A stretch of 64,000 nucleotides of DNA from a virus. The DNA is taken from the IMG/VR virus record IMGVR_UViG_3300045988_175656. One strand, 5' to 3'. Shown here one piece after another: positions 6,216-43,416 of the stretch. The position numbers and the translations under genes are program-made. Position 1 is the stretch's first letter; each line of letters starts with the position of its first letter. A model generated the notes under the pieces. It had not been told where the DNA came from, searched no databases, and worked only from the letters and a program-made list of their open reading frames with translations.

Positions 6216-7082
6216 ATGTTTAAAAAATTATTCAAAATGGGTGGAGATAGTAATTTTAATAAACTATCTTTACTTTTGATAACCATAATAGGTTTCACAT
6301 TAATAATTGGTGCGTGGTATTTTGTAACTTATTTACAAATTATTCCAACCAAAGTACTTCCTAATCCTTTTGATGTAATTGGGAGCTATGGTAAATTGAT
6401 TAGTGAATATAACATGTTTGGTAATGCGTGGTATTCAATTAAATTAAATTTTATGAGTTATTTTTATGCAATTTTGATAGCATTACCAATTGGATTTTTT
6501 ATTGCATTATATCCTATTAATAATATTTTAATTGGTAAATATATTAATTCTGTTAGGTATTTACCAATTCCTGCAATGAGTGGTATTTTTATTGCTATAT
6601 TTGGTTTAACATTTGGCATGAAAGTGTCTTTTTTAACATTTGCGTTATTAATTTATATTTTACCAGCAGTTGCTAATAAAGTTAATGATTTACAAAATCC
6701 AAATAATGATAAAGATTATGTGTATCTTCAAACGATAAGAACATTGGGTGGTAGTAATTGGCAAAAGTTTAAATATGTTTATTTTCCTTATGTAACACGA
6801 AATATTTCAAATGAAATTATTAATTTAACAGGTATTTCATGGTCATATGTTGTTATTTGTGAATTACTTTATAAAGACGGTTCAATTAGTGGTATTGGGG
6901 CGATGATTAATAATATGATGCGCCAATCTTATGTGCCTGAAGCATATGCTTTATTATTTTTAGTAATTCTTATTGGGTTTGGGCAAGATTATTTGTTGAA
7001 AGGATTGGATAAAGTATTATTTCCATCAAAATACAATAAAAAGCCGTTTAAAATTAGTAATTGGTTTGTAACAGAAAAATAA
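6216..7082 (+). CDS. ABC transporter permease (NitT/TauT-like)
   Basis: about 6 hydrophobic segments; sits between binding-protein and ATPase genes; 6-nt gap to the ATPase. Confidence 0.7.
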   Translation: MFKKLFKMGGDSNFNKLSLLLITIIGFTLIIGAWYFVTYLQIIPTKVLPNPFDVIGSYGKLISEYNMFGNAWYSIKLNFMSYFYAILIALPIGFFIALYPINNILIGKYINSVRYLPIPAMSGIFIAIFGLTFGMKVSFLTFALLIYILPAVANKVNDLQNPNNDKDYVYLQTIRTLGGSNWQKFKYVYFPYVTRNISNEIINLTGISWSYVVICELLYKDGSISGIGAMINNMMRQSYVPEAYALLFLVILIGFGQDYLLKGLDKVLFPSKYNKKPFKISNWFVTEK

Positions 7083-8219: not shown

Positions 8220-10142
8220 ATGAAAAGAATTTTAGGTATTGATTTAGGCTCTACAAACTCAGCAGTGAGTGTGATTGAGAGTGGAAAAGCAATAATTGTA
8301 GTTAATGAGGAAGGTAGAAGAACTACCCCATCTGTGATTGCATTAAAGAATGGGGAAAGAAAAGTTGGAGAAGCTGCAAAAAGACAACGTGTTGTTAATC
8401 CTAAAGAAACTGTATCAATAATTAAAAGATTTATGGGGGCTGATTTTAATTCTTCTGAATGTCAAGAAGCTATTAAAAAAGTACCTTATGAAATTATTAA
8501 TAAGGATGGTAAAGCAAGAGTTCTAATTGAAAACAGAGAATATTCTCCTGAAGAATTATCTTCTTATATCATTTCTAAACTTAAAAAATGTGCCGAAGAT
8601 TATGTAGGTGGGGAAATTAAAGATGCTGTTATTACAGTTCCAGCATATTTTAATGATTCACAACGTACAGCAACTAAAGTCGCAGGTGAACTAGCTGGTT
8701 TGAATGTGTTAAGAATTATTAATGAACCAACAGCAGCTATTCTTTCTTCTGATATTGATATTAAACATGGTGAGAAAAATATTATGGTGTGTGACTTTGG
8801 TGGTGCAACAACTGATTTTTCTGTATGTAATTTGTCAGAAGGATTAACAGAAGTATTATCAACTTATGGTGATGTATTCCTAGGTGGTAGTGATATTGAT
8901 AATGCTATTGCAGAATGGATTATAAGCTCATTTAATGAAGAAAATGGTGTGGATTTAAAGAGTGATGCCCAAGCATTACAACGTGTCGTAGAAGCGGCTG
9001 AAACTGCTAAAATAGAGCTATCATCTTCTAGTTCTGCTGAAATTAATTTGCCTTATATTTGTAGTAAAGATAATACACCATTACATTTACAATATACATT
9101 AACAAGAGCTAAGTTTAATCAATTAACACAACCATTGATTGATAAACTGATTAAATGTGGTAAAGAGTCTTTGAAAAAAGCAAATCTTAAAGCAAATGAA
9201 CTTAATGGTATTTTGCTTGTTGGTGGGTCTTGTCGTTGTTTGAATGTACAAGATGCTTTAACCAAAGAATTTGGTGTAGAACTATTGAAATCAGCTAATT
9301 TGGATGAAGCTGTTTCATTAGGTGCAGCTATTCAAGCTAATATTATAGTTGGTGGAGAAGGAAGTTCTGATATGGTATTACTTGATGTAACTCCACTTTC
9401 AATGGGTATTGAAACAATGGGTAATGTGATGACAAAACTTATTGATGCAAATACAACAATTCCATGCAAAAAAAGCCAAATTTTCACAACTGCTGTGGAT
9501 AATCAGCCATCTGTTGATATTCATGTATTACAAGGTGAAAGACCAATGGCTAAAGATAATAAAACAATTGGTATGTTCCAATTAACTGATATTTTACCAG
9601 CAAGACGTGGTGTGCCACAAATTGAAGTAACATTTGATATTGATGCTAATGGTATTTTGAATGTTTCTGCAAAAGATAAAGGTACAGGAAAAGAACAGTC
9701 AATTAGAATTGAAGCAAGTAATGGTCTTTCTGATGCTGAAATTGAAAAAATCAAGCAAGAAGCAAAAGAACATGAAGCAGCAGATAAGAAATTGAAAGAA
9801 GAAGCTGATATAATTAATAATGGAGATGCTATGGTTTTTCAAACTGAAAAACAGATTGAAGAATATGGTGATAAAATTTCTTCAGATAGTAAGAAATCTT
9901 TAGAAGAACTAATTGAAAAGTTAAAAAATTCTTTAAAAGATAGAAATATATCTGATATTAAAGAAAACACTGATAAAATCACATCACAATGGCAAAAAAT
10001 TACTTCTGAAATGTATGCAACAGGTACTAATGGTGGTACATCTAATTTTGAAGATATTTTAAGAGGTGCAGCAAATGGTAATACAAAAACAGATACCAAA
10101 GAAGATAATGTAACTGATGCTGATTTTGAAGAAGTTAAATAA
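8220..10142 (+). CDS. dnaK: Hsp70 chaperone DnaK
   Basis: [69 protein letters not shown]; full length 640 aa. Confidence 0.95.
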
Positions 10143-10193
10143 TATTTAAGGTAAATTAACATTAATAATGGTGCAGATTACGAATTAATTTTG

Positions 10194-10203
10194 TATATTT
10201 GTA
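10194..10203 (+). promoter_or_regulatory. Bacteroidota-type -7 promoter box
   Basis: tatatttgta upstream of dnaJ; bracketed by inverted repeat 10164-10172 / 10203-10211. Confidence 0.5.
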
Positions 10204-10239
10204 CCATTATTGGTTTAATAACACATTAAAGAAAGATAT

Positions 10240-11331
10240 ATGGCAGAAAAAAGAGATTATTATGAAGTGCTAGGAGTTGATAGAAATTCATCAAATGATG
10301 ATATTAAAAAGGCATATCGTAAGAAAGCAATTGTATTACATCCTGATAAACAACAAGGAAAAACAGATGAAGAAAAGAAAATAGCAGAAGAAGAGTTTAA
10401 AGAAGTTGCTGAAGCATATGAAGTTTTATCAAACCCTCAAAAAAGAACTGAATATGACCAATTTGGTTTTGCTGGACGTAATGGTCAAGGATTTGATATT
10501 AACATGCAAGACATCATGGAAGAAATGATGCGTATGAATCCATTTGGCAATCCATTTCATAGAAATCAATCACGCCAATATATGAAAGGTAGTGATATAA
10601 GAATACCACTTGTTTTATCATTAGAAGATATATTTAATGGGGTGCATAAAACAGGCAAATATAAAAGAAAAATAAAATGTCCTGATTGTAATGGTCTAGG
10701 TGCAAAAAATAAAGATGATATAACAGAATGTCCTCATTGTCATGGTACAGGTGTGTATGTTGAAACTGTAATGCAAGGAAATATGATTTTTCAGAATCAA
10801 ACAACATGCCCATATTGTTATGGTAAAGGTAAAATAGTTTCCAAACCATGTGATAGATGTCATGGAGAAGGTCTTATCACAGTTGAAGAGACTATTGAGA
10901 TTGATGTACCAAAAGGGGTAGAAGAAAATATGGCAATAACATTTAATGGTATGGGAAACTTCCCACAAGGAGAAGGTGTTCCTGGGGATTTAATTGTCAT
11001 TATTAAACTTAAACCTCATGGTAGATTTGATAAACAAGGTGCAACAATTTATGCAATGAAAGAAGTGTCAGTTATTGATTGTATTCTGGGTGTTAATTCT
11101 ACAATTCAGGGGATTGATGGAAATATTTACAAATTTAGAATACGTCAAGGTACAATGAATGGTGAACAATATAGGATTGCAGGAAAAGGTTTGCCAATAC
11201 TTCATACTGATAAACGTGGTGATTTGATTGTTATGATTAAACAAGATATGCCAAAAAATCTTACATCAGAAGAAATTGAATTGCTAAAAAAGTTAAGAGA
11301 AATGCCACATTTTAAAACTGAAGAAGAATGA
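10240..11331 (+). CDS. dnaJ: Hsp40 co-chaperone DnaJ (type I)
   Basis: J domain [12 protein letters not shown]; four CxxCxGxG zinc motifs ([32 protein letters not shown]); C-terminal substrate-binding region. Confidence 0.9.
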
Positions 11332-14129: not shown

Positions 14130-14648
14130 ATGGCTAATATTAAAAATAAAATAAATGAACCACGAATTAATGACGAAATTTGTGGTGTTGAAACAGTTAG
14201 AATTGTTGGAGACAACATTGAAAGTCGTGAAATTTCTCTTAGAGAAGCTAAGAGAATTGCAAGCAATTTGGAACTGGATTTAGTTGAAATTAACGGAAAT
14301 GTCAACCCACCTATTGTTAAAGTGGTAGACTATTCAAAATATATGTTTGAACTAAAAAAAGCATTAAAGAATAAAAATAAGAAAAATTGTGTTTTGAAAG
14401 AAATACAGTTAAGTACAAACATATCATCTAATGACCTTAACACAAAGGTCAGAAAAGCAAAAGAATTTATTGAGGATGGTAATAAGGTAAAAGTTGTTTT
14501 AACAATGAAAGGGCGTGAATTAGGACGTAGAGAAGATTCTAAGAAATCGTTATTGACTTTTATTGTTGAAATGGATGAAGTAGCTGTACCTGAGTCACTA
14601 CCCAGAGATGAAGGAAATAAGTGTACTGTTATTTTAAAGAAAAAATAA
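14130..14648 (+). CDS. infC: translation initiation factor IF-3 homologue
   Basis: INDEICGVETVRIVGDN..LDLVEIN..PPIVKVVDYSKYMFE (N domain) and KEIQLSTNISSNDLNTKVRKAKEFIEDGNKVKVVLTMKGRE (C domain). Confidence 0.85.
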   Translation: MANIKNKINEPRINDEICGVETVRIVGDNIESREISLREAKRIASNLELDLVEINGNVNPPIVKVVDYSKYMFELKKALKNKNKKNCVLKEIQLSTNISSNDLNTKVRKAKEFIEDGNKVKVVLTMKGRELGRREDSKKSLLTFIVEMDEVAVPESLPRDEGNKCTVILKKK

Positions 14649-14662
14649 ATTTTAATTAATAT

Positions 14663-15553
14663 ATGGCTTTAATTGTAGATTGCAAATCATCAAGTTTATA
14701 TTGGAATCGTAATAATGTTACAATGTTATATTTTGATGATATTAAAAAGTATGATATACTTACACCGACAGAAGAATATGAATTATTTGAAAAAATAAAG
14801 TTTGGTACTCCATCGGAAAAAGTAAAAGCGAGAGAAAAAATAATACAATGTAATCAACGATTTATTGTATCAGCAGCAAGAAGATGGTCAACATATAACA
14901 ATCTTCCTGATTTAATCAATGAAGCAAACATTGGATTGATGAAAGCCATTGATAATTTTGACCATACAATTAATAAAAGGTTTTTAACTTATGCAATATG
15001 GTGGATTCGCAAAGAGTTGAATGCATATTTAATAACAAAGGAAAATGTTGTAAAAACAAAAAATGCACATAAAATATATACTTCAGCAAATAAAGTTAGA
15101 AACGAATTTTATTCACGTGAAGGTAGATACCCAACCACTGAAGAAATAAAAGAATTAATTTATAAAAATTATAATTATGATATTCGTCATAATGAAGATT
15201 TATATGAGTTAAGAGTTTCATCAATTGATGAAACCTATTCTAATGATGGTGATGATGCAAGTTTTACAATGGAAGATAATAGTGAATATGCAATGGTTTC
15301 TTCAAGTTGTAACATTGAAGAAAATATTGAGAAAGACTATGAAAAAAGTTTTGTAGAATCATTATTGGTAACATTAAATGACAGAGAACAAGAAATAATT
15401 AAATTGTTATATGGCATTAATGAAGTTCGAGAGTTAAGTATTGATGAAGTTGCAGATAAATTGAATATGTCTCGTGAGAGAGTAAGACAATTAAAGTTTG
15501 CAATTCTTGATAAATTGAAAAAAGAGATGGAAGAGCTAAGAATAGCTATATAA
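14663..15553 (+). CDS. RNA polymerase sigma-70 family factor
   Basis: region 2: EANIGLMKAIDNFD, FLTYAIWWIRKEL; region 4.2: SIDEVADKLNMSRERVRQLKFAILDKLKKE. Confidence 0.85.
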   Translation: MALIVDCKSSSLYWNRNNVTMLYFDDIKKYDILTPTEEYELFEKIKFGTPSEKVKAREKIIQCNQRFIVSAARRWSTYNNLPDLINEANIGLMKAIDNFDHTINKRFLTYAIWWIRKELNAYLITKENVVKTKNAHKIYTSANKVRNEFYSREGRYPTTEEIKELIYKNYNYDIRHNEDLYELRVSSIDETYSNDGDDASFTMEDNSEYAMVSSSCNIEENIEKDYEKSFVESLLVTLNDREQEIIKLLYGINEVRELSIDEVADKLNMSRERVRQLKFAILDKLKKEMEELRIAI

Positions 15554-15589: not shown

Positions 15590-16022
15590 TACCAATACCT
15601 CTAATTAATTCATATAGTTTGTTAATTTCATCAGGTGTAAAATGTCTTACAACACCATCTGCATCAGGTGTACCAGTTGCCATCTTAGAAAACAAAGAAC
15701 GTAATTCATCCTCTTTCTTCTTATCTGATGGATGCCATAAATCTCTCATTAATTGTGCATGATTTAAACTATCATCTTTTAATGAGTTCATTACTGATTT
15801 ATATTTGTTTTGTGTCATACCACTTTTTTCTGCATTTTTCTTCTCTTTAGATTTAGGAGAAAATCTTCGTATTGTGGATTTTGACGCTTCATCTAATTTA
15901 GATTTAATTACTTTTTGTAATGATTCAGATACAACTTGCTCAACTTGTTTTCTAACAACAAGTTCTTGTAATGATTCTGAAACTATATTTTTAATATTAT
16001 CTTTTGATATGTTATGTATCAT
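15585..16022 (-). CDS. hypothetical protein (K/E/S-rich)
   Basis: ORF track; isolated minus-strand gene; the + strand ORF 15805..16047 is treated as its shadow. Confidence 0.55.
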   Translation of the reverse strand: MIHNISKDNIKNIVSESLQELVVRKQVEQVVSESLQKVIKSKLDEASKSTIRRFSPKSKEKKNAEKSGMTQNKYKSVMNSLKDDSLNHAQLMRDLWHPSDKKKEDELRSLFSKMATGTPDADGVVRHFTPDEINKLYELIRGIGK

Positions 16023-16123
16023 ATTATATAAAACATTTTATATATAAATATCTAAATTAGATTAATAACATATTTTAATAGAAAAAAATTCGATAAATAT
16101 TTGGTAAGTTCAATATTAAGTTG

Positions 16124-16133
16124 TATATTTGCA
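16124..16133 (+). promoter_or_regulatory. Bacteroidota-type promoter
   Basis: tatatttgca, with TTTG at 16100-16103 (20-nt spacer). Confidence 0.6.
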
Positions 16134-16198
16134 ATGTCATTAGAAATAATGATAAAGAGATAAAGAAAAATAAGCAATAATTTAAAAAGTTTTCTGTT

Positions 16199-17851
16199 AT
16201 GACACAAAATTTATTTTTAGCAAATTTAGGTAAACATGCAGCACAAACAGCTAATGGTGCAGTAAGTAATTCAACAACTGGTCGTCTGTTAGTTGACCAA
16301 TTTGCAAAAGCAGGTGCAGCAAAGGGAAGAAATATTCAAGAAGTATTTGCTGACCAATCAGCTATATGGGGTGAGGATGCATTAGGTGCATTACGTTTTG
16401 CATTCTATTTGCGTATGATTACTCGTAAAACAAAGTTGTTTGGTGGAGAACAAACTGAAACTGTTCAACGAGGACAAGGTAATCAAGATGAAGCTTTAAA
16501 GCGTATGCTTTGGGTGGCTTTGTATCATCCTGAAACATTTTATAAAAACTTGTGGATTGTTCCACTTGTCGGTTCTTGGAAAGATTTGTGGATTTTACTT
16601 ACAATGTCTGATGAATTGAAAAAGGAAGAGTTTTTCAAAACAATGGCTGAAGGTATCAATGATGAAAATCAAAAAGGTCTGGTATTGAAATATTTACCTC
16701 GTATTCGCTCAAATAAGAAATGTGTTTCAGAATGGGCAATTAAGACTAATCAATTGGCTAAGGAATTTTGTAATTTTATTGGCTGGAAAGCTGAACATTA
16801 CCGTAAATTTAAGTCAACAGGTATTGCACATAAGTTCCAACAACTAATGTGTGGCGGATTATATGATAACATTGATTTTAATCAAATCCCTGGTCGTGCA
16901 TTGTCTATTATGTTGGCAAATGGTGGAAAATGGCTAAAAAATCACAATCTTGAAACTAAATATCAAGAATGGATTGAAAAACAACCAGTAGCCAAATTTA
17001 CAGGTTTTGTTTATGAACTTGGAAAACAAGTTCCATCAGTAAACAATTACATGACGAAGCCATTGTCATATATTCAAAAAATGACAATTGACAAACAATT
17101 TGATGGGTTAATCAAATTGGCAAAATCAGATAATGGTGGAATTAAAGGCAATGTGTGGTGTTGTCTTGATACTTCAGGCTCTATGAATACAAGCATTCAT
17201 GGTTTGAAAGATGTGAGATGTTGTGATATTGCTAATTCATTGGCAGTTTATTTTTCAACTTTAAATGAAGGTGCATTTCATAAGAGTGTATTAGCATTTG
17301 ATAATACAAGTAAACATTACAAATTGTCAGGTACATTTACTGATATGATGTCTAATCTTCCTCGTGTTGGATGTGGTGGTACGAACTTTCAAGGTGCTAT
17401 TGATGAAATTCTTCGTGTAAGAAGAAGTAATCCTAAAATTCCATTGGAAGATTACCCAAAAACATTGCTGGTAATATCAGATATGCAATTTAACCCAACT
17501 AGCAATAGTGGGTATTGGGGTTACAGCAATCGTAAATCATCAAATGCTGAAGTTTCCACAAATTATGAGGAATCCAAAAGAAAACTTCTTCAGGCATTCC
17601 CAAAAGAATTTGTTGATGAAATGAAGTTTATATGGTGGCATGTAACTTCTCAATATAAAGATTTCCCATCAAGTATTGATGACCCAGGAACATACATGTT
17701 CTCAGGTTTTGATGGGGCTGTTGTTAGTTTACTTCTTGGTGGAGATGCTACTGTTGTAGATGAAAAAACAGGTGAAACTCGTCAACTTTCAATGGAAGAA
17801 ATGGTTCAAAAGGCTTTGACACAAGAATTGTTATTGCAATTGAAGTTGTAG
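16199..17851 (+). CDS. TROVE/DUF2828-like helical domain plus vWA domain protein (Ro60-like architecture)
   Basis: N-terminal TANGAVSNSTTG..LRFAFYLRMITR..GSWKDLW pattern; C-terminal vWA with MIDAS-like CCLDTSGSM and LLVISDMQFN. Confidence 0.55.
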   Translation: MTQNLFLANLGKHAAQTANGAVSNSTTGRLLVDQFAKAGAAKGRNIQEVFADQSAIWGEDALGALRFAFYLRMITRKTKLFGGEQTETVQRGQGNQDEALKRMLWVALYHPETFYKNLWIVPLVGSWKDLWILLTMSDELKKEEFFKTMAEGINDENQKGLVLKYLPRIRSNKKCVSEWAIKTNQLAKEFCNFIGWKAEHYRKFKSTGIAHKFQQLMCGGLYDNIDFNQIPGRALSIMLANGGKWLKNHNLETKYQEWIEKQPVAKFTGFVYELGKQVPSVNNYMTKPLSYIQKMTIDKQFDGLIKLAKSDNGGIKGNVWCCLDTSGSMNTSIHGLKDVRCCDIANSLAVYFSTLNEGAFHKSVLAFDNTSKHYKLSGTFTDMMSNLPRVGCGGTNFQGAIDEILRVRRSNPKIPLEDYPKTLLVISDMQFNPTSNSGYWGYSNRKSSNAEVSTNYEESKRKLLQAFPKEFVDEMKFIWWHVTSQYKDFPSSIDDPGTYMFSGFDGAVVSLLLGGDATVVDEKTGETRQLSMEEMVQKALTQELLLQLKL

Positions 17852-17910: not shown

Positions 17911-18621
17911 ATGAAAATTATGAATATAATCGAAAAAATAGATAAAAGATTTGCTATTAATTCAAATTATAATGAAACATTTGATAAGTTTGCAATAGCA
18001 TGTTATGATTTACATGATAATGTAAATCAAAAATATGATAACAATCCTTATTCTTTACATTTGAGAATGGTAACTAATATGTTGCCAATTGTTTTTAATG
18101 ATGCGTGGGAGTGTGGTTTTATCATTAATAATGCGTATGAACAAACTTTATTAAAAGACTATATAAAATGTTTTTACTCTGCATTATTGCATGATTCAAT
18201 TGAAGATGCAAGACTTACATATAACGATGTAAAAAAAATGGTTTCTTTTTATAATTCATTTTGTTTTTCTTGTTATGATGATGAAGAGATGCGAACATTT
18301 CATTATATGTTAATGATTGAACCTGAAGATGTTGCTGATATTGTTTATGCTGTAACAAATGAAAAAGGTAAAAATCGTTCAGAACGAGCAAATGAAAAGT
18401 ATTATCAAGGAATTAGAGAAAACAAACTTGCTGTTATTGTGAAAATTTGTGATAGGCTAGCTAATGCTCTCTACTCAAAATTAATTAATAGTAGAATGCT
18501 TGATGTTTATAAAAAAGAACATGAACATTTTATAAACTCAGTTATTGAGGATGATAATAGTGAATTTTATAAAAAAATTGAAGCACATTTTACTAAAATA
18601 TACAATGATGAATTAATATGA
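17911..18621 (+). CDS. HD hydrolase, RelA/SpoT-type (alarmone-hydrolase-like)
   Basis: HLRMV.. and ALLHDSIEDARLTYNDV match the SpoT/MESH1 HD signature. Confidence 0.55.
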   Translation: MKIMNIIEKIDKRFAINSNYNETFDKFAIACYDLHDNVNQKYDNNPYSLHLRMVTNMLPIVFNDAWECGFIINNAYEQTLLKDYIKCFYSALLHDSIEDARLTYNDVKKMVSFYNSFCFSCYDDEEMRTFHYMLMIEPEDVADIVYAVTNEKGKNRSERANEKYYQGIRENKLAVIVKICDRLANALYSKLINSRMLDVYKKEHEHFINSVIEDDNSEFYKKIEAHFTKIYNDELI

Positions 18622-20177
18622 AAAAAATATTTACTCTATCAGAAAAAGCTTCATTAGAATATAGTGCAGCTATATGTAGAATTGGCGAAGTAAAGCCAAT
18701 TAAAGGCTCTGAATTTTTAGGACAAACAATTGTGTTTGGTCAGTCATTAGTTGTTAGAAAAGATGAAATGAAAGAAGGCGATATTGTCATATATTGTCCT
18801 ATTGAAACTATTCTTAACAAAGATTTTTTATCTGCTAATAATCTTTATGAAATGGGCGAAAGAAAACGAAATGCTAATTTCGAAGAAGTTCAAAAGTTAT
18901 ATGAAGAAGGTAAAGAAGAAGAAGCTAAATCTAAAGTGGGCTTTTTTAATAAACATGGGCGTATTAAATTATTAACATTAAGAAATACACCATCAGTAGG
19001 TTTTATATTTAAACCAGAAAATTTATTGAAGTGGAAACCTAATTTGGATTTATCTGATATTGAGTCTCATATTAATGAACAATTTGACACAATTGATGAT
19101 GAATTATTTATTAAAGTATATGTTCCATATACCCCACCACAACAACAGCCCTCTGGTGATAGAAAGCTCAGAAAACGCAATAAAAAGATAAAGAGAATGA
19201 GTAGAATGGTTGAAGGTGAATTTTCATTTCATTTTGATACCAATCAATTTAACAATAATGTGTGGAGATTTTCGCCAAACGATATTGTAACAATATCTCT
19301 TAAAGAACATGGTACATCTGCAATTTTTGCTAATATTTTAGTGAAACATCCAATTGTATTGACTCCTGTTCAACGGATAATTAATAAACATATTAAAAAA
19401 ACAATAAGAAATACATCTATTACTTTTGGCAAAAGTAAAAATAAAAATATTTCTAATAGTTGTTATAAAAAACTTCATATGTTAGAAAAACATATAATAC
19501 CATCATATACTTTAAAGTATGGAAATGTTTATTCTTCAAGAGGTGTTATTAAAAATGAGTTTATTAACCAAAACGTTACAAGCGGATTTTATAAAACAGA
19601 TGTATGGGGAGAATATAATAAATTAATCTCTCCTTATATTGAAAAAGGAATGTCACTTTACGGAGAAATTGTAGGATATGTATCAGGTTCACAAAAAATG
19701 ATACAAAAGTCTTATGATTATGGTTGTATGGAAGGTGAAAACTATCTTATGATTTATCGTATAACAACAAAAGATAAAGATGGGGTTAAAAAGGAATGGA
19801 ATGTAACTGATGTAGAAAAGTGGACTAAAAATTTATTAAAAAAACATCCTGAACTAAAGAAAAATATTCACCCAATTAAGATTTTATATCATGGTACATT
19901 AGCGGACCTTTATCCTGAAATATCAACAACTGACCATTGGCATGAAAATATATTAGAAGCTATGAAAGCTGATAAAATGCACTTTGGAATGGAAGAAGAT
20001 GAACCTTATTGTAAAAATAAAGTTCCAAGAGAAGGAATTGTTATTAGAATTGATAATGATAAAAAACCTGAAGCTTTTAAATTGAAATGTTTAAAGTTTT
20101 ATCAAAGAGAACGAAAAATGATTGATAAAGGCGAAGTGGATATTGAGATGGTACAAGGCTATACAGAGGAAAACTAA
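18618..20177 (+). CDS. ATP-dependent RNA ligase, DRB0094/Rnl5-like
   Basis: N-terminal PIKGSEFLGQTIVFGQSLVVRKDEMKEGDIVIYCPIE, GRIKLLTLRNTPSVGF, lysine-nucleotidylation motif KEHGTS; ATGA overlap with the HD gene. Confidence 0.7.
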   Translation: MKKIFTLSEKASLEYSAAICRIGEVKPIKGSEFLGQTIVFGQSLVVRKDEMKEGDIVIYCPIETILNKDFLSANNLYEMGERKRNANFEEVQKLYEEGKEEEAKSKVGFFNKHGRIKLLTLRNTPSVGFIFKPENLLKWKPNLDLSDIESHINEQFDTIDDELFIKVYVPYTPPQQQPSGDRKLRKRNKKIKRMSRMVEGEFSFHFDTNQFNNNVWRFSPNDIVTISLKEHGTSAIFANILVKHPIVLTPVQRIINKHIKKTIRNTSITFGKSKNKNISNSCYKKLHMLEKHIIPSYTLKYGNVYSSRGVIKNEFINQNVTSGFYKTDVWGEYNKLISPYIEKGMSLYGEIVGYVSGSQKMIQKSYDYGCMEGENYLMIYRITTKDKDGVKKEWNVTDVEKWTKNLLKKHPELKKNIHPIKILYHGTLADLYPEISTTDHWHENILEAMKADKMHFGMEEDEPYCKNKVPREGIVIRIDNDKKPEAFKLKCLKFYQRERKMIDKGEVDIEMVQGYTEEN

Positions 20178-20192
20178 CCTGGCAAGGTCGTA

Positions 20193-20254
20193 GCGAATGG
20201 GAATAAATTGTTTATTCTGTTTGGTGAAAGTGGGTTCAACTCCCACCATTCGCT
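20193..20254 (+). ncRNA. tRNA-like element (acceptor stem and T-arm, no D-arm, atypical central hairpin)
   Basis: GCGAATG (20193-99) pairs with CATTCGC (20247-53); T-arm GTGGG-TTCAACT-CCCAC (20230-46); central hairpin GAATAAA-TTG-TTTATTC (20201-17); only 62 nt, no encoded CCA. Confidence 0.5.
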
Positions 20255-20410
20255 CTATTTAATCTATTATGTTGAACAAGGGTTTAAAGTAAACTATACA
20301 AACCAGAAACCCTGAACCTTTAAGCAATTATTGGTAACAGACCATTGGGTAATTCCATAGGAGTGCTGTTAGGTATAGTATATTAGATTTTCATAATTTA
20401 AATTGATAAT

Positions 20411-20608
20411 ATGGCATTTAAGTTTAGTTTTGATAAATATATGGAAGATGTATATTCTCAGTTAGAATGTAATGCATCAAATGAATATGAAAAAATGTAT
20501 ATTACTTTTACATATTCAAAGGAAGAAGTAGAAAACAATATAGATTACTTTAAAAGATGTTATAACAAAAATATATCAGCTTATAAAGCACTAACATTTA
20601 TGAAATAA
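20411..20608 (+). CDS. hypothetical protein
   Basis: ORF track; one nt before the next gene. Confidence 0.5.
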   Translation: MAFKFSFDKYMEDVYSQLECNASNEYEKMYITFTYSKEEVENNIDYFKRCYNKNISAYKALTFMK

Positions 20609-20609
20609 T

Positions 20610-21200
20610 ATGAACAAAATTAAAATTGTGTTTGCTTCACATAACAAACACAAAATAGATGAAATTAAGCAAATTCTTGGTGATAGATTTGAAATTACCA
20701 GTTTGACTGATTTAGGTGTAACAGAAGAAATTCCAGAAACAGGAAACAGTTATTTTGAAAACGCAAATATAAAAGCAAGTTATGTTTACAATAAATTTGG
20801 TTTAAATTGTTTTGCTGATGATAGTGGTATTGAATTTTCAGGTTTATTAGGCGAACCAGGCATATTTTCAGCTCGCTGGGCAGGCGAAAATGCCACAGGC
20901 GAGGATTTGGTTGAAAAGTCGTTAAAATTGCTTGGTGACTCTTTAAATAGGTCTGCAATACAACTTACAACGATAGTAGTTTATATTGATGGAGAAATGC
21001 ATATGTTTAATGGAAGTTTAAGTGGGTTTATCACTTATCAACCATTTGGCTGTAATGGGTTTGCTTATGATAAAATATTTGTACCTAATAACTGTGAAAA
21101 GACTTTAGCTGAAATGACAAATGAAGAAAAGAATGTTATTTCTCATAGAGGTATAGCAGTTAGAAAATTAAAAGAGTTTCTTTTGAATAAAATATGTTAA
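20610..21200 (+). CDS. rdgB: non-canonical purine NTP pyrophosphatase (RdgB/HAM1)
   Basis: IVFASHNKHKIDEI, DDSGIEFSGLLGEPGIFSARW, GFAYDKIFVP, SHRGIA. Confidence 0.8.
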   Translation: MNKIKIVFASHNKHKIDEIKQILGDRFEITSLTDLGVTEEIPETGNSYFENANIKASYVYNKFGLNCFADDSGIEFSGLLGEPGIFSARWAGENATGEDLVEKSLKLLGDSLNRSAIQLTTIVVYIDGEMHMFNGSLSGFITYQPFGCNGFAYDKIFVPNNCEKTLAEMTNEEKNVISHRGIAVRKLKEFLLNKIC

Positions 21201-21875: not shown

Positions 21876-22343
21876 ATGATTAGTGATAAATTAGACAATT
21901 TGATTGCAGAAGCAATGAAAAACCATGAAACTGAAAAGTTAGAAGTTTTAAGATTAATTAAGACTAAGTTCATGGAGTATAAAACAGCTAAAGCTGGAAA
22001 TGTATTGGATGAACAGACTGAAGCAAGTATATTAATTAAGATGATTTCTCAAAGAGAAGATTCGATTAAACAATATACCAATGCAAAACGTCCTGAATTA
22101 GCTGAACAAGAAGCAAAAGAAATTAATATTATTCAAGAGTTTGCACCAAAACAAGCAACAGATGAAGAAATTGAAAATTTCACAAGTTCTACAATTACAG
22201 CTTATAAATTAACAAAAGAAGAAGGTTATATAATTTCTATGAGAGATATGAAACCAATTATGGAGCTTGTTAAAGCTGAATATCCTATGGCTAATGGGAA
22301 AGTTGTGTCTAAAGTAATGAATAACTATATTAATGGTAAGTAA
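21876..22343 (+). CDS. GatB/YqeY-domain protein
   Basis: N-terminal L..L...AMK....E.L.vLRLI pattern and overall size typical of YqeY. Confidence 0.65.
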   Translation: MISDKLDNLIAEAMKNHETEKLEVLRLIKTKFMEYKTAKAGNVLDEQTEASILIKMISQREDSIKQYTNAKRPELAEQEAKEINIIQEFAPKQATDEEIENFTSSTITAYKLTKEEGYIISMRDMKPIMELVKAEYPMANGKVVSKVMNNYINGK

Positions 22344-22799: not shown

Positions 22800-23336
22800 A
22801 TGAATATGAATTGTTGTAGTAATGAAAGCAAAGCAACTTTGGCTTATGTAAATGATTGTGGTTCAAGTGAAATTTTAACCAAAGAAGTGGACTTGTCAAG
22901 TAAAGAAAGTGTTTTGAAAAGACATAAAGAATTAGAACAAGTACAAAGAAATTTGTATGATAAAATGGAGAATCTAGGAAAGAAATATACAGAATTGTTT
23001 AAGACAGAATTAATTAATAGAAATATTAAAGGCAAATGTTTTGTCTCTGATAAAAATATTAATAGTTGTTATGGTCCAATAAACGATGTTAAGTCCAAAT
23101 ATGTTGAATATTTTAGAGTGACAGAAATTAAATATGTATATTATAATTCAATTACATTAGTTTGCGATTTTTTTAATAAATATGAAGATGAAAATTCAAA
23201 GAAAGCGTATCATTTTGGTCATGGTGTAATTGAAGTACTTCATTCAGCTCTTGATGAAAAGAATGAAATTACACTTCAAGAATTTAAGCAAAAACGTGAA
23301 GAATATTTTAATGAATATAAAGAATATGTTCAATGA
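22800..23336 (+). CDS. hypothetical protein
   Basis: ORF track. Confidence 0.55.
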   Translation: MNMNCCSNESKATLAYVNDCGSSEILTKEVDLSSKESVLKRHKELEQVQRNLYDKMENLGKKYTELFKTELINRNIKGKCFVSDKNINSCYGPINDVKSKYVEYFRVTEIKYVYYNSITLVCDFFNKYEDENSKKAYHFGHGVIEVLHSALDEKNEITLQEFKQKREEYFNEYKEYVQ

Positions 23337-23809
23337 GAGTAAATAAAGATTATGTATTTTTCTGGGGAAGCGAATTTTCTAATTGGTTTCCCTCAGAATT
23401 TCAGTTAGAAGGAAAGAAGTTCTATAATGCAGAACAATATTTCATGTATAAAAAAGCTAAATTTTTTAACGATGAAGAAATGGCTATGGCTATTTTGTGT
23501 ACTGATGACCCTAAAGTAGCTAAGAAATTAGGACGTAAAGTTAAAAATTTTAAAGATATTGCTTGGTCAAAAGTTCGTAAAGAATATATGAAAGAAGCTT
23601 GTAGAGCTAAATTTACACAAAATTTAGATTTAAAAGAGAAACTTCTTAGTCATAAAACACAAACTTATGTTGAAGCTTCTCCTTATGATATTATTTGGGG
23701 TGTTGGATTAAGTGAGGACAATCCACAAATAAATAATAAGGAGAATTGGTTAGGAAAAAATCTTTTAGGAGAAGTTTTAACTGAATTAAGAGATGAACTT
23801 AGTAAATAA
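23333..23809 (+). CDS. NADAR (YbiA/DUF1768) family protein
   Basis: FFWGSEFSNWFPS, YNAEQYFMYKKAKFF, IIWGVGL; ATGA overlap upstream. Confidence 0.7.
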   Translation: MRVNKDYVFFWGSEFSNWFPSEFQLEGKKFYNAEQYFMYKKAKFFNDEEMAMAILCTDDPKVAKKLGRKVKNFKDIAWSKVRKEYMKEACRAKFTQNLDLKEKLLSHKTQTYVEASPYDIIWGVGLSEDNPQINNKENWLGKNLLGEVLTELRDELSK

Positions 23810-27582: not shown

Positions 27583-27623
27583 CTTTAGCGAAGTTTAGAA
27601 CATTGATAAAAACAAAAATATTT

Positions 27624-28829
27624 ATGAAACTATTAGAGAAAATTATAAATCAAGAAACTTATATGGTTAATTGGGATGAAGTGGCAAAAATACCAGAATT
27701 TGGCGTTTTAAAAAAAACTGAACAGAATCCTAAATGGCATTCAGAAGGAAATGTATGGAATCATACAGTAAATGTGGTAAATGAAATGTATAAATTAGTA
27801 CCATATAACGAATCAGATAAAATATTCTCTGATATGAGACATCAAAGACGTTTAGTTATGGTTGCTGCTGCTTTGTTTCATGATATAGGCAAAGGTGCTA
27901 CAACCAAATGGTCAGATGAAAAGGGTTCATGGACTTCTCCACGTCATGCGCCTGTTGGTGAACAAATCACACGTAGATTGTTATGGGATGAAGATTTTTT
28001 TGTTAGAGAAAAAATATGCTCTTTGGTTAGAAACCATATGAAACCGTTATATATTTATGATTCTGAAACTCCTGTTCGTGATGTAATATTTTTAGCTGAA
28101 GAGCCTATATCTTTTAACAATTTAATTACGTTAAAAATTGCTGATTGTTTAGGCGCAATTCAAACTGAAGAAGATGGATGGAGAGATAAATTAGAATATG
28201 CAAAAGAAATAGCCCAAGACTATAAATGTTTAGAAAATCCTTATAAGTTTTCTAATGAATATAGTCGTTTTGAATTTTTCCATAATCAAAAAATGGAATA
28301 TCCTGTGGATTTGTATAATCCATCTAATGTAGGTAATTTTACAGTATATTTTATGATTGGATTACCTGGTTCAGGCAAAGATACATATATTAAAAACCAT
28401 TTGTCTAATATTCCAACTGTTTGTAGAGACGAAATTCGCACTGAAATTGGTATTAAAGGTGAAAAGCCAATGGGCAATAAAAAGCAAGAAGATGAAGTTA
28501 CTCGTATTCAAAATGAAAGAATTTTGGAATATGCAAGAAAACATCAATCTTTCATTATCAATGCAACTAATTTAAAAAGAATGTATCGTGATGGGTTTAA
28601 ATCAATGTTAGCTCCATACAATGCTCGTATCGAATATGTGTATGTAGAAGCACCTGATTTTAACAAAACACTTGAAAGAAGAAAAGGTACAATACCACAA
28701 GATGTTATTAAAAGAATGAGAGAATATTTTGAATTTCCACGTCCAAATGAAGCTTATGCAATAAGAATTGATGTACAAAGAAATTCAATTTATGGTAAAA
28801 CAACTGATTATGAAGGAAAAGACAAATGA
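27624..28829 (+). CDS. HD phosphoesterase plus P-loop polynucleotide-kinase-like fusion (RNA end-healing enzyme)
   Basis: N-terminal NPKWHSEGNVWNHT..AALFHDIGKG (HD of the CCA-enzyme type); C-terminal GLPGSGKDTY P-loop; start moved to the first ATG. Confidence 0.6.
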   Translation: MKLLEKIINQETYMVNWDEVAKIPEFGVLKKTEQNPKWHSEGNVWNHTVNVVNEMYKLVPYNESDKIFSDMRHQRRLVMVAAALFHDIGKGATTKWSDEKGSWTSPRHAPVGEQITRRLLWDEDFFVREKICSLVRNHMKPLYIYDSETPVRDVIFLAEEPISFNNLITLKIADCLGAIQTEEDGWRDKLEYAKEIAQDYKCLENPYKFSNEYSRFEFFHNQKMEYPVDLYNPSNVGNFTVYFMIGLPGSGKDTYIKNHLSNIPTVCRDEIRTEIGIKGEKPMGNKKQEDEVTRIQNERILEYARKHQSFIINATNLKRMYRDGFKSMLAPYNARIEYVYVEAPDFNKTLERRKGTIPQDVIKRMREYFEFPRPNEAYAIRIDVQRNSIYGKTTDYEGKDK

Positions 28830-43375: not shown

Positions 43376-43385
43376 TATATTTGCA
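43376..43385 (+). promoter_or_regulatory. Bacteroidota-type promoter
   Basis: tatatttgca, with TTTG at 43352-43355 (20-nt spacer). Confidence 0.6.
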
Positions 43386-43416
43386 CTATAAATTAATAAC
43401 AATAATAAAAAATAAC

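What the first reader, a model, noticed from the sequence alone, without database searches (positions are those of the whole stretch)
20178..20410. A 62-nt non-canonical tRNA-like element directly after the RNA ligase stop, followed by further conserved-looking stems
Seen: a 7-bp acceptor-type stem pairs GCGAATG (20193-99) with CATTCGC (20247-53). Immediately before the 3' strand sits a canonical T-arm, GTGGG-TTCAACT-CCCAC. There is no D-arm. The only other helix is GAATAAA-TTG-TTTATTC, which can alternatively be drawn as a 5-bp stem with the 7-nt loop AATTGTT, but that loop lacks U33 and a purine at 37. No CCA is encoded. Downstream, AGGGTTT (20279-85) pairs with AAACCCT (20307-13). GTTGAAC (20271-77) is exactly complementary to the T-loop segment GTTCAAC (20234-40), so an alternative fold or pseudoknot is possible. 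Inference: the element could be a processing signal for RNase P, RNase Z or the CCA-adding enzyme, as with mascRNA-type tRNA mimics. It could also be a decoy or substrate for the neighbouring repair enzymes, or a decoy for host anticodon nucleases.
Basis: seen in the sequence. Interest (0 to 1): 0.7.

Follow-up and report, generated by a model that had tools for sequence, protein, structure and literature searches.

The report
Anticodon-less mini-tRNA plus new phage RNA
Right after the RNA-repair ligase gene of a giant gut phage sits a conserved 61-base "top half" of a glycine-type tRNA with no anticodon, followed by an uncatalogued knotted small RNA that is widespread in phage tRNA gene clusters; both look functional, but their jobs are inferred, not shown.

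Summary
20193-20254(+) is a three-helix tRNA-like RNA. It has a 7-bp acceptor stem, a canonical T-arm and one AT-rich hairpin, with no D-arm and no anticodon arm. Its acceptor signature (G1-C72, C2-G71, G3-C70, U73) is glycine-type. Standard tools miss it narrowly (Rfam tRNA 27.1 bits, cut-off 29; ARAGORN finds nothing).

The element is a single ~71-nt insertion shared by two sister phage lineages. In the 81%-ligase relative, 45 nt of acceptor, linker and T-arm carry no substitutions while synonymous sites are only 56-64% identical. The hairpin keeps its pairing through a compensatory change. It is therefore under selection, not debris.

The "further stems" (20273-20387) are a separate pseudoknotted RNA ("DS motif") of about 105 nt. 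It has no match in Rfam 15. More than 120 metagenomic copies were found, with 97% of base-pair cells paired and 19 of 23 pairs covarying. It lies co-oriented in phage tRNA arrays, and once inside a phage tmRNA.

Best reading (about 0.37): the mini-tRNA is a handle for RNase P, RNase Z and the CCA-adding enzyme. It would cut the Ro60-like/HD/RNA-ligase transcript from the downstream RNA. The main rival is an RNA partner of the repair proteins. The anticodon-nuclease decoy idea and the GTTGAAC pseudoknot idea are not supported.

The parts
16199..17851 (+). Ro60/TROVE-like RNA-binding protein (HEAT-repeat ring plus VWA domain), first gene of the operon
   Evidence: Pfam DUF7788, DUF2828 and VWA_2. 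PHROG 850 'RNA-binding protein', E = 2.6e-56. AlphaFold model with pLDDT 87.5. Best Foldseek PDB hits, over the full length: 9kop 'Trove domain' E = 2.3e-7 and 9l5y_B 'Ro60 from Thermus phage phiLo' E = 2.8e-5.
17911..18621 (+). HD-type metal-dependent phosphohydrolase; its end overlaps the ligase start
   Evidence: PHROG 990 'metal-dependent phosphohydrolase', E = 2.6e-21. Weak Pfam HD match, E = 0.012.
18618..20177 (+). RNA ligase (N-terminal OB domain plus nucleotidyltransferase domain)
   Evidence: Pfam PHA02142 OB-fold and RNA_ligase. PHROG 968 'RNA ligase'. The N-terminus resembles Naegleria gruberi RNA ligase 5cou. Family member P0020 is a fusion of HD, AAA_33 kinase and ligase.
20178..20187 (+). 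Conserved CCTGGCAAGG / CTTGGCAAGG box directly after the ligase stop codon. It marks the upstream junction of the mini-tRNA insertion.
   Evidence: Present in window, L085, L086, L212 and, slightly altered, L088. Function unknown.
20193..20254 (+). Anticodon-less mini-tRNA. Acceptor 20193-99 / 20247-53; hairpin 20200-20218; conserved single-stranded linker GTTTGGTGAAA 20219-29; T-arm 20230-46; discriminator T 20254.
   Evidence: structure; conservation and compensatory change; single insertion in one clade; glycine-type acceptor signature.
20273..20387 (+). DS motif, a pseudoknotted small RNA. Helix C 20279-85 / 20307-13 is interleaved with helix A 20293-99 / 20373-79 and helix E 20304-06 / 20366-68. 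Hairpin D is 20316-18 / 20333-35 (variable length). Hairpin B is 20346-48 / 20355-57 with loop GTAATT. Invariant joiners are ACAGACCA and TAGGAG.
   Evidence: Covariance model R1 scores 115.3 bits, and this is the only copy in the window. 98 matches in 100 sources. Covariation counts. No Rfam family matches.
20411..21200 (+). Downstream genes of the same strand: a 65-aa ORF and a Ham1/ITPase-family pyrophosphatase
   Evidence: synteny. No terminator-like site lies between the ligase gene and these genes.
27603..28829 (+). HD plus AAA_33 protein (polynucleotide kinase/phosphatase-like), a likely end-healing partner of the ligase
   Evidence: Pfam AAA_33 E = 2e-17 and HD E = 1.5e-9.

Best explanation
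The 61-nt element is a tRNA-derived minihelix. It is the coaxial acceptor/T-arm top half of a tRNA-Gly-type molecule. A single hairpin and an 11-nt conserved linker replace the D-arm and anticodon arm.

It was inserted once, as a unit of about 71 nt, between the stop codon of the RNA ligase gene and a pre-existing small pseudoknotted RNA (the DS motif). It has been kept by selection since then.

It cannot decode. It retains precisely the features read by the host tRNA end-processing machinery.

Proposed mechanism:
1. The operon (Ro60-like, HD, ligase, mini-tRNA, DS RNA, downstream genes) is transcribed as one RNA.
2. RNase P cuts 5' of G20193.
3. RNase Z or another 3' nuclease cuts after U20254, and CCA may be added.
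4. The mini-tRNA thus acts as tRNA punctuation. It sets the 3' end of the ligase mRNA and frees the DS RNA precursor. This gives DS the same tRNA-flanked processing context it has in phage tRNA arrays.

Shown: the structure, the selection, the insertion history and the DS family with its tRNA-array habitat. Inferred: co-transcription, cleavage by RNase P and RNase Z, and the benefit of the cut.
For: 1. The invariant parts are the enzyme-recognition parts. The acceptor stem, the T-arm with consensus T-loop and G53-C61, the discriminator and the GG-containing linker show 0 substitutions in 45 nt against L085. Ligase third-codon positions are 64% identical and 4-fold-type positions 56% identical. 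The hairpin changes sequence and loop but keeps its pairing (A-U to G-C).
2. The fold is stable and unique. The Rfam tRNA model aligns it end to end with the anticodon arm deleted.
3. It is a clean indel. It is present in window, L214, L174 and L085. It is absent at the same junction in L086, L088 and L212, all of which keep DS. The ligase tree makes window and L085 sisters, so one gain next to a pre-existing DS explains the pattern.
4. DS elsewhere sits in co-transcribed stable-RNA clusters. All 163 tRNAs within 2 kb of 89 distinct DS copies are on the same strand. 16 of 89 copies have a tRNA within 60 nt, and some tRNAs start at the last DS base pair. One DS copy lies inside a phage tmRNA gene.
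5. Other lineages of this ligase also carry ARAGORN-uncalled tRNA-like genes starting 22-25 nt after the ligase stop (L013, L053). Only 1 of 82 loci has a normal tRNA within 700 nt downstream. This fits a tRNA-like 3'-end signal for this mRNA.
6. No terminator-like site separates the ligase gene from the RNAs.
7. Precedent: the M. smegmatis Y RNA YrlA, with a 7-bp acceptor-like stem, is cut by RNase P and receives CCA in vivo (PMC4201824). That acceptor/T-arm minihelices are substrates for RNase P, RNase Z and the CCA-adding enzyme, and that mascRNA is released from MALAT1 this way, rests on my own knowledge.
Against: There are no expression or end-mapping data. Close relatives L086, L088 and L212 keep DS after the ligase gene without any tRNA-like element, so the handle is dispensable. 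The maintained hairpin and the sequence-invariant 11-nt linker go beyond what a bare processing signal needs, and they suggest a binding partner or a role for the released RNA. The L013 and L053 tRNA-likes follow the ligase gene without a DS motif, so the link may be to the ligase rather than to DS. Promoters of the host type could not be scanned reliably.
Confidence: 0.37

Rival explanations
1. The mini-tRNA is a trans-acting RNA partner or cofactor of the repair proteins encoded upstream. It would be a Y-RNA-like tRNA mimic bound by the Ro60-like protein, or a regulator or substrate of the ligase, as in bacterial rsr-yrlA-rtcB operons.
For: The first gene of the operon is Ro60/TROVE-like by structure. 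Bacterial and phage Ro60 proteins bind Y RNAs encoded next to them, and these contain tRNA-like domains (PMC4201824; PMC12135203; PMC7824862). The linker and hairpin are constrained beyond processing needs. Unusual tRNA-likes sit directly after this ligase in two independent lineages.
Against: The YrlA-type Ro-binding motif GNCGAAN0-1G is absent from the element. Nearby copies lie in coding sequence and drift synonymously. The topology is the opposite of YrlA: here the acceptor is open and the other arm is closed. L086, L088 and L211 have the same Ro-like/HD/ligase cassette without the element. L013 and L053 have ligase-adjacent tRNA-likes but no Ro-like gene within 5 kb.
Confidence: 0.25
2. 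It is a free-standing acceptor-arm mimic of tRNA-Gly. After CCA addition it would be charged by GlyRS, or it would act as a decoy for host toxins that attack tRNA acceptor ends or aminoacyl groups.
For: It carries G1-C72, C2-G71, G3-C70 and U73. That these form the bacterial GlyRS acceptor identity set rests on my own knowledge. A bona fide tRNA-Gly(UCC) of Ca. Phytoplasma mali has the identical acceptor stem, T-stem and U73. Phage tRNA-Gly in L015 has the identical acceptor stem and the same 3' trailer TCTA. Among the fetched phage tRNAs, a GCG start combined with U73 is mostly Gly (6 Gly, 2 Met).
Against: There is no evidence of charging. Efficient GlyRS recognition also uses anticodon bases C35 and C36, which are absent here (own knowledge). 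The same 3' half occurs in cellular tRNA-Leu and tRNA-His genes with other discriminators. The narrow distribution argues against a general counter-defence role.
Confidence: 0.1
3. It is a decaying tRNA-Gly pseudogene, or a remnant of an integration site (a host tRNA fragment), with no function.
For: It is restricted to one small clade. Standard tRNA finders reject it. The bare pattern is not rare in shuffled sequence.
Against: There are 0 substitutions in 45 nt while neutral sites are 36-44% diverged, and a compensatory pair change sits in the hairpin. Both acceptor strands are retained, whereas attachment sites carry only the 3' part (own knowledge). The 28 exact matches to its 3' half in 185,579 species genomes are ordinary Leu, His and Gly tRNAs of unrelated taxa, and none is a gut Bacteroidota candidate host. 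The carrier is a phage of about 380 kb with no integrase noted near the element.
Confidence: 0.08
4. The mini-tRNA and DS form one composite RNA, for example a miniature or two-piece tmRNA-like molecule, or an alternative fold through GTTGAAC/GTTCAAC.
For: DS occurs inside a genuine phage tmRNA in L133. Both lineages that carry the mini-tRNA have GTTGAAC where lineages without it have TTTGAAA or ATTGAAA.
Against: ARAGORN's tmRNA search finds nothing here. There is no G3-U70 pair and no tag reading frame. DS exists without the mini-tRNA in more than 100 loci, and it predates the mini-tRNA at this locus. The 7-mer complementarity is expected by chance in 57% of shuffles. The A/C variation at that DS flank position occurs across the family without any tRNA-like neighbour.
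Confidence: 0.05

Closest known systems
mascRNA / MALAT1-type tRNA-like processing elements, and tRNA punctuation of polycistronic transcripts (own knowledge)
   Same: A tRNA mimic of about 61 nt with no decoding role, embedded in a longer transcript. By inference, RNase P and RNase Z would cut on either side of it, defining the ends of the neighbouring RNAs.
   Different: mascRNA keeps a four-arm cloverleaf. This element has only the acceptor stem, the T-arm and one hairpin. It is in a phage and is glycine-type. Its processing is not shown.
Bacterial and phage Y RNAs with a tRNA-like domain (YrlA; Yrl1 and Yrl2 of Thermus phage phiLo)
   Same: A tRNA mimic encoded in an operon with a Ro60-family protein and an RNA ligase. 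YrlA of M. smegmatis is cut by RNase P and CCA-tailed (PMC4201824).
   Different: It has no Ro-binding stem or motif and no D-arm. The topology is opposite: the ends are at the acceptor stem rather than at the Ro-binding stem. Sister phages with the same proteins lack it.
tRNA-like domain of tmRNA
   Same: An acceptor stem plus T-arm without an anticodon arm. The T-loop sequence is identical to the GGGTTCAACTCCC found in many tmRNAs (own knowledge).
   Different: There is no G3-U70 alanine determinant, no mRNA-like region and no pseudoknot ring. ARAGORN's tmRNA mode is negative.
Arm-less mitochondrial tRNAs (own knowledge)
   Same: Truncated tRNA architecture. ARAGORN's mitochondrial mode is the only mode that calls the element.
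   Different: Those tRNAs keep a functional anticodon arm. Here the proposed 'anticodon stem' is three G-U pairs and two Watson-Crick pairs, with no support from the relative.
T4 rnaC/rnaD (species 1 and 2 RNAs), ROOL and GOLLD: small or large stable RNAs of unknown function next to phage tRNA genes
   Same: For the DS motif, the habitat is the same: co-oriented inside or beside phage tRNA clusters.
   Different: No sequence or structure match. Model R1 does not hit T4 rnaC or rnaD. Rfam models, which should include ROOL and GOLLD if my recollection of Rfam's contents is right, do not hit DS. DS is much smaller, at about 105 nt.
HDV-like theta ribozymes of gut phages (PMC10879173)
   Same: For the DS motif: found in gut and rumen phages, associated with tRNAs, pseudoknotted, with highly conserved joining nucleotides.
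   Different: Theta ribozymes sit within 5 nt of the tRNA 3' end and have the HDV fold. DS has no P3/L3 between the P2 and P1 strands and no conserved C in the position of J4/2. Its spacing to tRNAs is variable.

Membership tests
tRNA (decoding; Rfam RF00005) | 7-bp acceptor stem closed by the 5' and 3' ends, plus a discriminator base | tested here: met
   GCGAATG/CATTCGC, 7 of 7 Watson-Crick pairs, discriminator U.
tRNA (decoding; Rfam RF00005) | 5-bp T-stem with G53-C61 and a 7-nt T-loop T54-T55-C56-R57-A58, abutting the acceptor 3' strand | tested here: met
   GTGGG-TTCAACT-CCCAC at 20230-46.
tRNA (decoding; Rfam RF00005) | Anticodon arm: 5-bp stem and 7-nt loop with U33 and a purine at 37 | tested here: not met
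   The Rfam alignment deletes the arm (18 model positions aligned to 8 nt). The only other helix has a 3-nt loop (4 nt in L085).
tRNA (decoding; Rfam RF00005) | D-arm (3-4 bp stem, loop with G18 G19) | tested here: not met
   The hairpin is 7-8 bp with loop TTG. A GG occurs only in the single-stranded linker.
tRNA (decoding; Rfam RF00005) | Reaches curated detection thresholds | tested here: not met
   27.1 bits against a gathering score of 29. ARAGORN default finds 0 genes in the whole window. Only relaxed or mitochondrial modes call it.
tRNA-Gly acceptor identity | G1-C72, C2-G71, G3-C70 and U73 (bacterial GlyRS acceptor determinants; own knowledge) | tested here: met
   All four are present. 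The acceptor is identical to those of phage tRNA-Gly in L015 and of Ca. Phytoplasma mali tRNA-Gly(UCC). All 13 phage tRNA-Gly have U73. Actual charging is not testable here.
YrlA-type Y RNA | Encoded next to a Ro60/TROVE protein | tested here: met
   The protein at 16199-17851 matches TROVE and phage Ro60 structures. It lies 2.3 kb upstream on the same strand.
YrlA-type Y RNA | Ro-binding stem formed by the RNA ends, carrying GNCGAAN0-1G | tested here: not met
   The motif is absent from 20178-20410. The copies at 18684, 18855 and 20130 are within the ligase ORF; the 20130 copy, the only one inside the aligned stretch, drifts at synonymous sites.
YrlA-type Y RNA | tRNA-like domain with D-arm, T-arm and a closed acceptor-like stem-loop | tested here: not met
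   Only the T-arm corresponds. The acceptor is open-ended and there is no D-arm.
tmRNA | tRNA-like domain with G3-U70, a tag reading frame and pseudoknots | tested here: not met
   The element has G3-C70. ARAGORN tmRNA mode finds 0 genes at a relaxed threshold. No Rfam tmRNA match.
mascRNA-like processing element / tRNA punctuation | Cleavage by RNase P at the 5' end and RNase Z at the 3' end, followed by CCA addition | not testable with these tools
   Requires end mapping or in vitro cleavage. Only the substrate features are shown.
HDV-like / theta ribozyme (for the DS motif) | Order P1-P2-P3-L3-P3'-P1'-P4-J4/2(C)-P2', positioned within 5 nt of a tRNA 3' end | tested here: not met
   The DS order is C-A-E-C'-D-B-E'-A', with no hairpin between the A/E and C' strands. 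The joiner before E' is TAGGAGYG, without an invariant C. Gaps to upstream tRNAs are 5 to 126 nt (PMC10879173).
Any Rfam 15 family (for the DS motif) | Match to a curated covariance model | tested here: not met
   No match at E <= 10 in 20000-20600 apart from the tRNA hit on the mini-tRNA and four weak low-scoring hits (E 0.093-5), none within the DS core. In 12 other DS-bearing loci only tRNA-class genes (tRNA, tRNA-Sec, tmRNA) and a weak minus-strand Plastid-ycf2 echo of one tRNA were reported, plus a sub-threshold wcaG hit (27.8 bits against 42) abutting the L133 copy.
T4 rnaC/rnaD (for the DS motif) | Homology to the T4 species 1 or species 2 RNAs | tested here: not met
   Model R1 with filters off gives no match over T4 70908-71171.

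The most novel reading that the evidence does not exclude
The mini-tRNA and the DS motif may together be a self-contained RNA-processing cassette. In this reading DS is a new class of small catalytic (self-cleaving) or processing-directing RNA that phages plant inside tRNA arrays and tmRNA genes to cut stable-RNA precursors. The anticodon-less tRNA-Gly minihelix would be an add-on handle, letting the same machinery work outside a tRNA array at the end of an RNA-repair operon. That operon's enzymes (HD phosphoesterase, kinase, ligase) could heal the ends that such cuts produce.
Probability: 0.12. Interest if true: 0.85.

Novelty: new variant of a known kind. Interest (0 to 1): 0.6.

Why it matters
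First, this is a natural case of a tRNA reduced to its acceptor/T-arm minihelix and kept by selection in a virus. It shows which tRNA parts remain useful once decoding is abandoned. It also offers a compact natural substrate for studying RNase P, RNase Z, the CCA-adding enzyme and GlyRS.

Second, following up the "further stems" uncovered an RNA family that matches no Rfam 15 model and whose core sequence returned no hit in a full-text search of open-access papers. The family has strong covariation and a pseudoknot. It has more than 120 copies in gut and rumen phage contigs. Related forms occur in cultured Vibrio and Erwinia phages, so it can be tested experimentally. Its strict co-orientation with tRNA genes, and its one insertion inside a tmRNA, point to a role in stable-RNA biogenesis. 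How giant phages run their own translation-related RNA economy is still poorly understood.

Third, odd tRNA-like genes recur directly behind this RNA ligase family. This suggests that phage RNA-repair modules have dedicated RNA components, as bacterial Ro60-RtcB operons do.

Tried and rejected
- Ordinary tRNA: rejected. ARAGORN default and Rfam at gathering threshold find nothing. ARAGORN's mitochondrial mode calls a 'TV-loop mtRNA-His(gtg)', but its anticodon stem is mostly G-U pairs, so this is not credible.
- Host tRNA fragment or attachment site: rejected. The genome scan for the 3' half returned only ordinary Leu, His and Gly tRNAs from unrelated taxa.
- Wider family of the mini-tRNA: none found. 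An exact search and two relaxed searches of viral contigs found only the same phage, plus a pattern-forced 41-nt minihelix in L246 and L247. nhmmer and a structural scan over all 210+ loci found no other copies.
- YrlA-type Y RNA: the motif and the topology are not met.
- tmRNA-like reading: rejected.
- DS as TnpB omega RNA or intron: one locus (L089) has TnpB 450 nt upstream and a LAGLIDADG gene downstream. The window and other loci do not, so this was dropped.
- DS as HDV-like theta ribozyme: the topology does not fit.
- DS as T4 rnaC/rnaD: no match.
- DS linked to the ligase or Ro-like genes: tblastn over about 700 kb of DS loci found those genes only in copies of the same phage.
- Literature: text searches for the DS core sequence found nothing. 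No supplementary files were held for the IMG/VR structured-RNA catalogue paper, so I cannot exclude that DS is one of its unnamed candidates.
- Sigma-70 promoter and terminator scan: uninformative for this AT-rich, probably Bacteroidota-infecting phage.
- Folding the whole 235-nt spacer: not distinguishable from shuffles (z = -0.48). Only the two separate elements are significant.
Full report
**What is there**

The window is AT-rich DNA from a very large phage. The same sequence lies on IMG/VR contigs of 380 kb and 232 kb. Its only similarity to named phages is weak similarity to the Prevotella Lak megaphages. It encodes DnaK, DnaJ, IF3 and a sigma factor.

On the + strand, three genes run in a row:
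- 16199-17851, a 550-aa protein;
- 17911-18621, an HD phosphohydrolase;
- 18618-20177, an RNA ligase.

An AlphaFold model of the first protein (pLDDT 87.5) matches a TROVE-domain crystal structure and the Ro60 of Thermus phage phiLo over its full length (E = 2.3e-7 and 2.8e-5). It is therefore a Ro60-like RNA-binding protein. An HD plus AAA_33 kinase-type protein lies at 27603-28829. One member of the ligase family is a fused HD-kinase-ligase (P0020). Together these make up a heal-and-seal RNA repair toolkit.

**Checking the observation**

The 62-mer 20193-20254 folds into one dominant structure. A 7-bp acceptor stem stacks on an 8-bp hairpin (7 Watson-Crick pairs and one G-U pair, loop UUG). 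An 11-nt single strand (GUUUGGUGAAA) follows. A canonical T-arm then abuts the 3' acceptor strand. The MFE is -19.9 kcal/mol with z = -3.39.

ARAGORN finds no tRNA anywhere in the 64 kb. Rfam finds nothing at gathering thresholds. In a local E-value search, the tRNA model aligns the element end to end with the anticodon arm deleted. The score is 27.1 bits against a threshold of 29, E = 0.0019. Relaxed ARAGORN modes give only 'tRNA-???' or a mitochondrial-type His call with a stem of mostly G-U pairs.

A loose acceptor-plus-T-arm pattern arises in 21% of dinucleotide shuffles of the window. The pattern alone would therefore not be convincing.

**Conservation settles that it is real**

I fetched syntenic relatives through the ligase protein.

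- The element is identical in L214 and L174.
- It is present in L085, whose ligase is 81-82% identical in amino acids.
- In L085, acceptor, linker and T-arm (45 nt) carry no substitution, only a one-U insertion in the linker.
- All differences fall in the hairpin. One A-U pair has become G-C, and the loop has changed from TTG to TAAT.
- Over the same evolutionary distance, ligase third-codon positions are 64% identical and 4-fold-type positions 56% identical. The spacers on either side of the DS motif are 79% (before it) and 69% (after it) identical.

This is purifying selection on an RNA structure.

In L086, L088 and L212 the element is missing as a clean block of about 71 nt. The block lies between a conserved CTTGGCAAGG box and the leader of the downstream RNA. 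L211 and L213 lack both RNAs. A ligase tree places window and L085 as sisters, nested among lineages without the element. The simplest history is one insertion next to a downstream RNA that was already there.

**Origin**

The acceptor stem, the U73 discriminator and the following C match tRNA-Gly.
- A normal tRNA-Gly(UCC) in a related phage (L015) has the identical acceptor stem and the same TCTA trailer.
- A scan of 185,579 species genomes for the 3' half returned 28 ordinary tRNAs. Those with U73 are tRNA-Gly(UCC). One of them, from Ca. Phytoplasma mali, shares the acceptor stem, T-stem and discriminator exactly.
- In the phage tRNAs fetched here, all 13 tRNA-Gly have U73. A GCG start combined with U73 is mostly Gly.

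No match points to a host attachment site.

**The 'further stems' are a different and larger story**

The region 20262-20395 is more conserved than the flanking proteins in all four relatives. It also recurs in unrelated contexts (L078, L089).

The consensus architecture is:
- a variable-length hairpin D;
- a 3-bp hairpin B with invariant loop GUAAUU;
- invariant joiners ACAGACCA and UAGGAG.

On a 15-sequence MAFFT alignment, 98.6% of cells pair and 15 of 23 pairs show double changes. Slid controls pair at 31-48%. I built a covariance model (R1) without the pseudoknot helix. It found 98 copies in 100 sources. On that alignment 97.1% of cells pair and 19 of 23 pairs covary. The unmodelled pseudoknot helix is 99% paired, with 5 of its 7 pairs covarying.

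The window has exactly one copy, at 20273-20387 (115 bits). No Rfam 15 family matches it. Its core sequence occurs in no paper of the searchable library.

**Habitat of the DS motif**

- All 163 tRNA genes within 2 kb of 89 distinct copies are on the same strand as DS.
- 16 of 89 copies have a tRNA within 60 nt. Some tRNAs begin at the last DS base pair.
- In L133 a DS copy lies inside a bona fide phage tmRNA gene, after the tag stop codon (Rfam 51.5 bits; also called by ARAGORN).
- Related RNAs that share the 5' pseudoknot half lie in the tRNA arrays of cultured Vibrio phage Va1 (R1 49.9 bits) and, more weakly (R1 21.3 bits, E = 0.0025), Erwinia phage Hena1, between tRNA-Gly and tRNA-Glu.
- DS is not linked to the ligase or Ro-like genes elsewhere.
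- It does not match T4 rnaC or rnaD.
- Its helix order does not fit HDV-like theta ribozymes.

**How the mini-tRNA most likely works**

It cannot decode, and it cannot mimic an anticodon loop. What selection preserves is the 12-bp acceptor/T-arm stack, the T-loop, the discriminator and a GG-containing linker. These are the features read by RNase P, RNase Z and the CCA-adding enzyme (established knowledge). As precedent, YrlA of M. smegmatis is cut by RNase P and CCA-tailed (PMC4201824).

The element sits 15 nt after the ligase stop codon and 25 nt before helix C of an RNA that normally lives among tRNAs. No terminator-like site lies in between. I therefore favour a punctuation role: it separates the repair-operon mRNA from the DS RNA.

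Other lineages of the same ligase (L013, L053) carry unusual tRNA-like genes starting 22-25 nt after the ligase stop. These have normal acceptor, D- and T-arms. A 48-59-nt insert replaces the anticodon loop. They score 34.9-40.1 bits on the Rfam tRNA model. Only 1 of 82 loci has a normal tRNA within 700 nt downstream. That recurrence fits a tRNA-like 3'-end signal for this mRNA. It equally fits a functional tie between the ligase and non-decoding tRNA mimics.

My confidence in the processing-handle model is therefore only about 0.37. The Ro60/ligase-partner model stands at about 0.25.

Against the partner model:
- the YrlA Ro-binding motif is absent, and the topology is the opposite of YrlA's;
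- the element is missing in sister phages with the same three proteins;
- L013 and L053 have no Ro-like gene nearby.

**Interpretation points that fail**

The anticodon-nuclease decoy idea fails because there is no anticodon loop and the hairpin loop is not conserved. The GTTGAAC/GTTCAAC pseudoknot is at chance level, since 57% of shuffles give such a 7-mer. In addition, GTTGAAC is part of the DS family's conserved 5' flank (consensus GAAMAAGGG).

**Verdict**

The finding is real and more interesting than an ordinary tRNA pseudogene. The mini-tRNA is a narrowly distributed new variant of the known kind 'tRNA mimic'. Its mechanism is inferred, not shown. The downstream element is a widespread, strongly supported RNA family that matched no Rfam 15 model, and its function is unknown. 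Overall interest is 0.6.

Noticed in passing
L133 1060-1572 (DS copy at 1241-1347): A phage tmRNA gene carries a DS-motif copy inside it, after the tag stop codon. Evidence for the tmRNA: Rfam 51.5 bits, an ARAGORN call, and the tag AKGRVISFSRPAAIAA read from the Rfam alignment. The gene is about 200 nt longer than the tmRNA in L175.
   Followed up: partly
L053 6603-6720, 6725-6841, 8458-8586; L013 about 6594-6703 and 9098-9208: A family of 110-128-nt tRNA-like genes with normal acceptor, D- and T-arms. A 48-59-nt insert replaces the anticodon loop; it holds a capped hairpin and a conserved CAGCAAC. They score above the Rfam tRNA threshold but ARAGORN does not call them. Two of them start 22-25 nt after the RNA ligase stop codon.
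   Followed up: partly
L243 (Erwinia phage Hena1, MN732867, 53720-53839) and L244 (Vibrio phage Va1, MK387337, 193187-193282): Cultured phages carry unannotated RNAs in their tRNA arrays. These share the DS 5' pseudoknot half (GAAMAAGGGTTT.AGTA...CAAACCAGAAACCCTGA...CTGTTAGG) but have a different inner domain (Hena1 matches R1 only weakly, 21.3 bits). This suggests a wider superfamily.
   Followed up: partly
L071 1730-1835: An element of about 100 nt with tmRNA-like ends (GGGACTGATTCGG...GTGGGTTCAACTCCCACCTTTCCCACCA). It has two T-arm-like hairpins and an encoded CCA, and ARAGORN does not call it. Its T-arm is identical to that of the window element.
   Followed up: no
L093, L142, L095, L100, L109, L112 (100-250 nt downstream of their DS copies): tRNA-Tyr-like genes (GTA anticodon, long variable arm) with a missing or abbreviated D-arm or a mismatched acceptor stem, not called by ARAGORN. 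Recurring conserved blocks also follow DS in several loci (for example TCTATCCGTACTAATCA...GGAGAAAGGTGGTAGATTA), which may be further RNA motifs.
   Followed up: no
window 20178-20187, and the same position in L085, L086, L088 and L212: A CTTGGCAAGG / CCTGGCAAGG box directly after the ligase stop codon is conserved in relatives with and without the mini-tRNA. It may be a tiny hairpin or a processing site.
   Followed up: no
window 16015-16205: The divergent intergenic region upstream of the Ro60-like gene is 87% conserved in four relatives. It contains TTGTATATTTGCA, which fits the Bacteroidota -7 promoter box TAnnTTTG (own knowledge). This agrees with a Bacteroidota host and one operon running from the Ro60-like gene onward.
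   Followed up: partly
L089 5280-6452(-), 1980-3539(-): In one small contig, a DS copy lies 450 nt downstream of a TnpB (IS605 OrfB) gene and upstream of a LAGLIDADG-domain protein. This placement was not seen in other DS loci.
   Followed up: partly
L246 10765-10805(-) and L247 1772-1812(-): A 41-nt acceptor-linker-T-arm minihelix (GGGCTCA-ACTGGTGAAA-GTGGGTTCGATTCCCGC-AGAGTCC) with no other arm sits right after a terminator-like hairpin. The search pattern forced the shared linker, so any relation to the window element is unproven.
   Followed up: no
window 8220-11331, 14130-15553, 21876-22343, 23333-23809, 43381-44637: Phage-encoded DnaK and DnaJ, an IF3 homologue (Pfam IF3_N and IF3_C on the syntenic gene in relatives), a sigma-70 family protein, a YqeY protein, a NADAR protein (by synteny with relatives) and a nicotinate phosphoribosyltransferase. 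This gene content is typical of giant phages.
   Followed up: no
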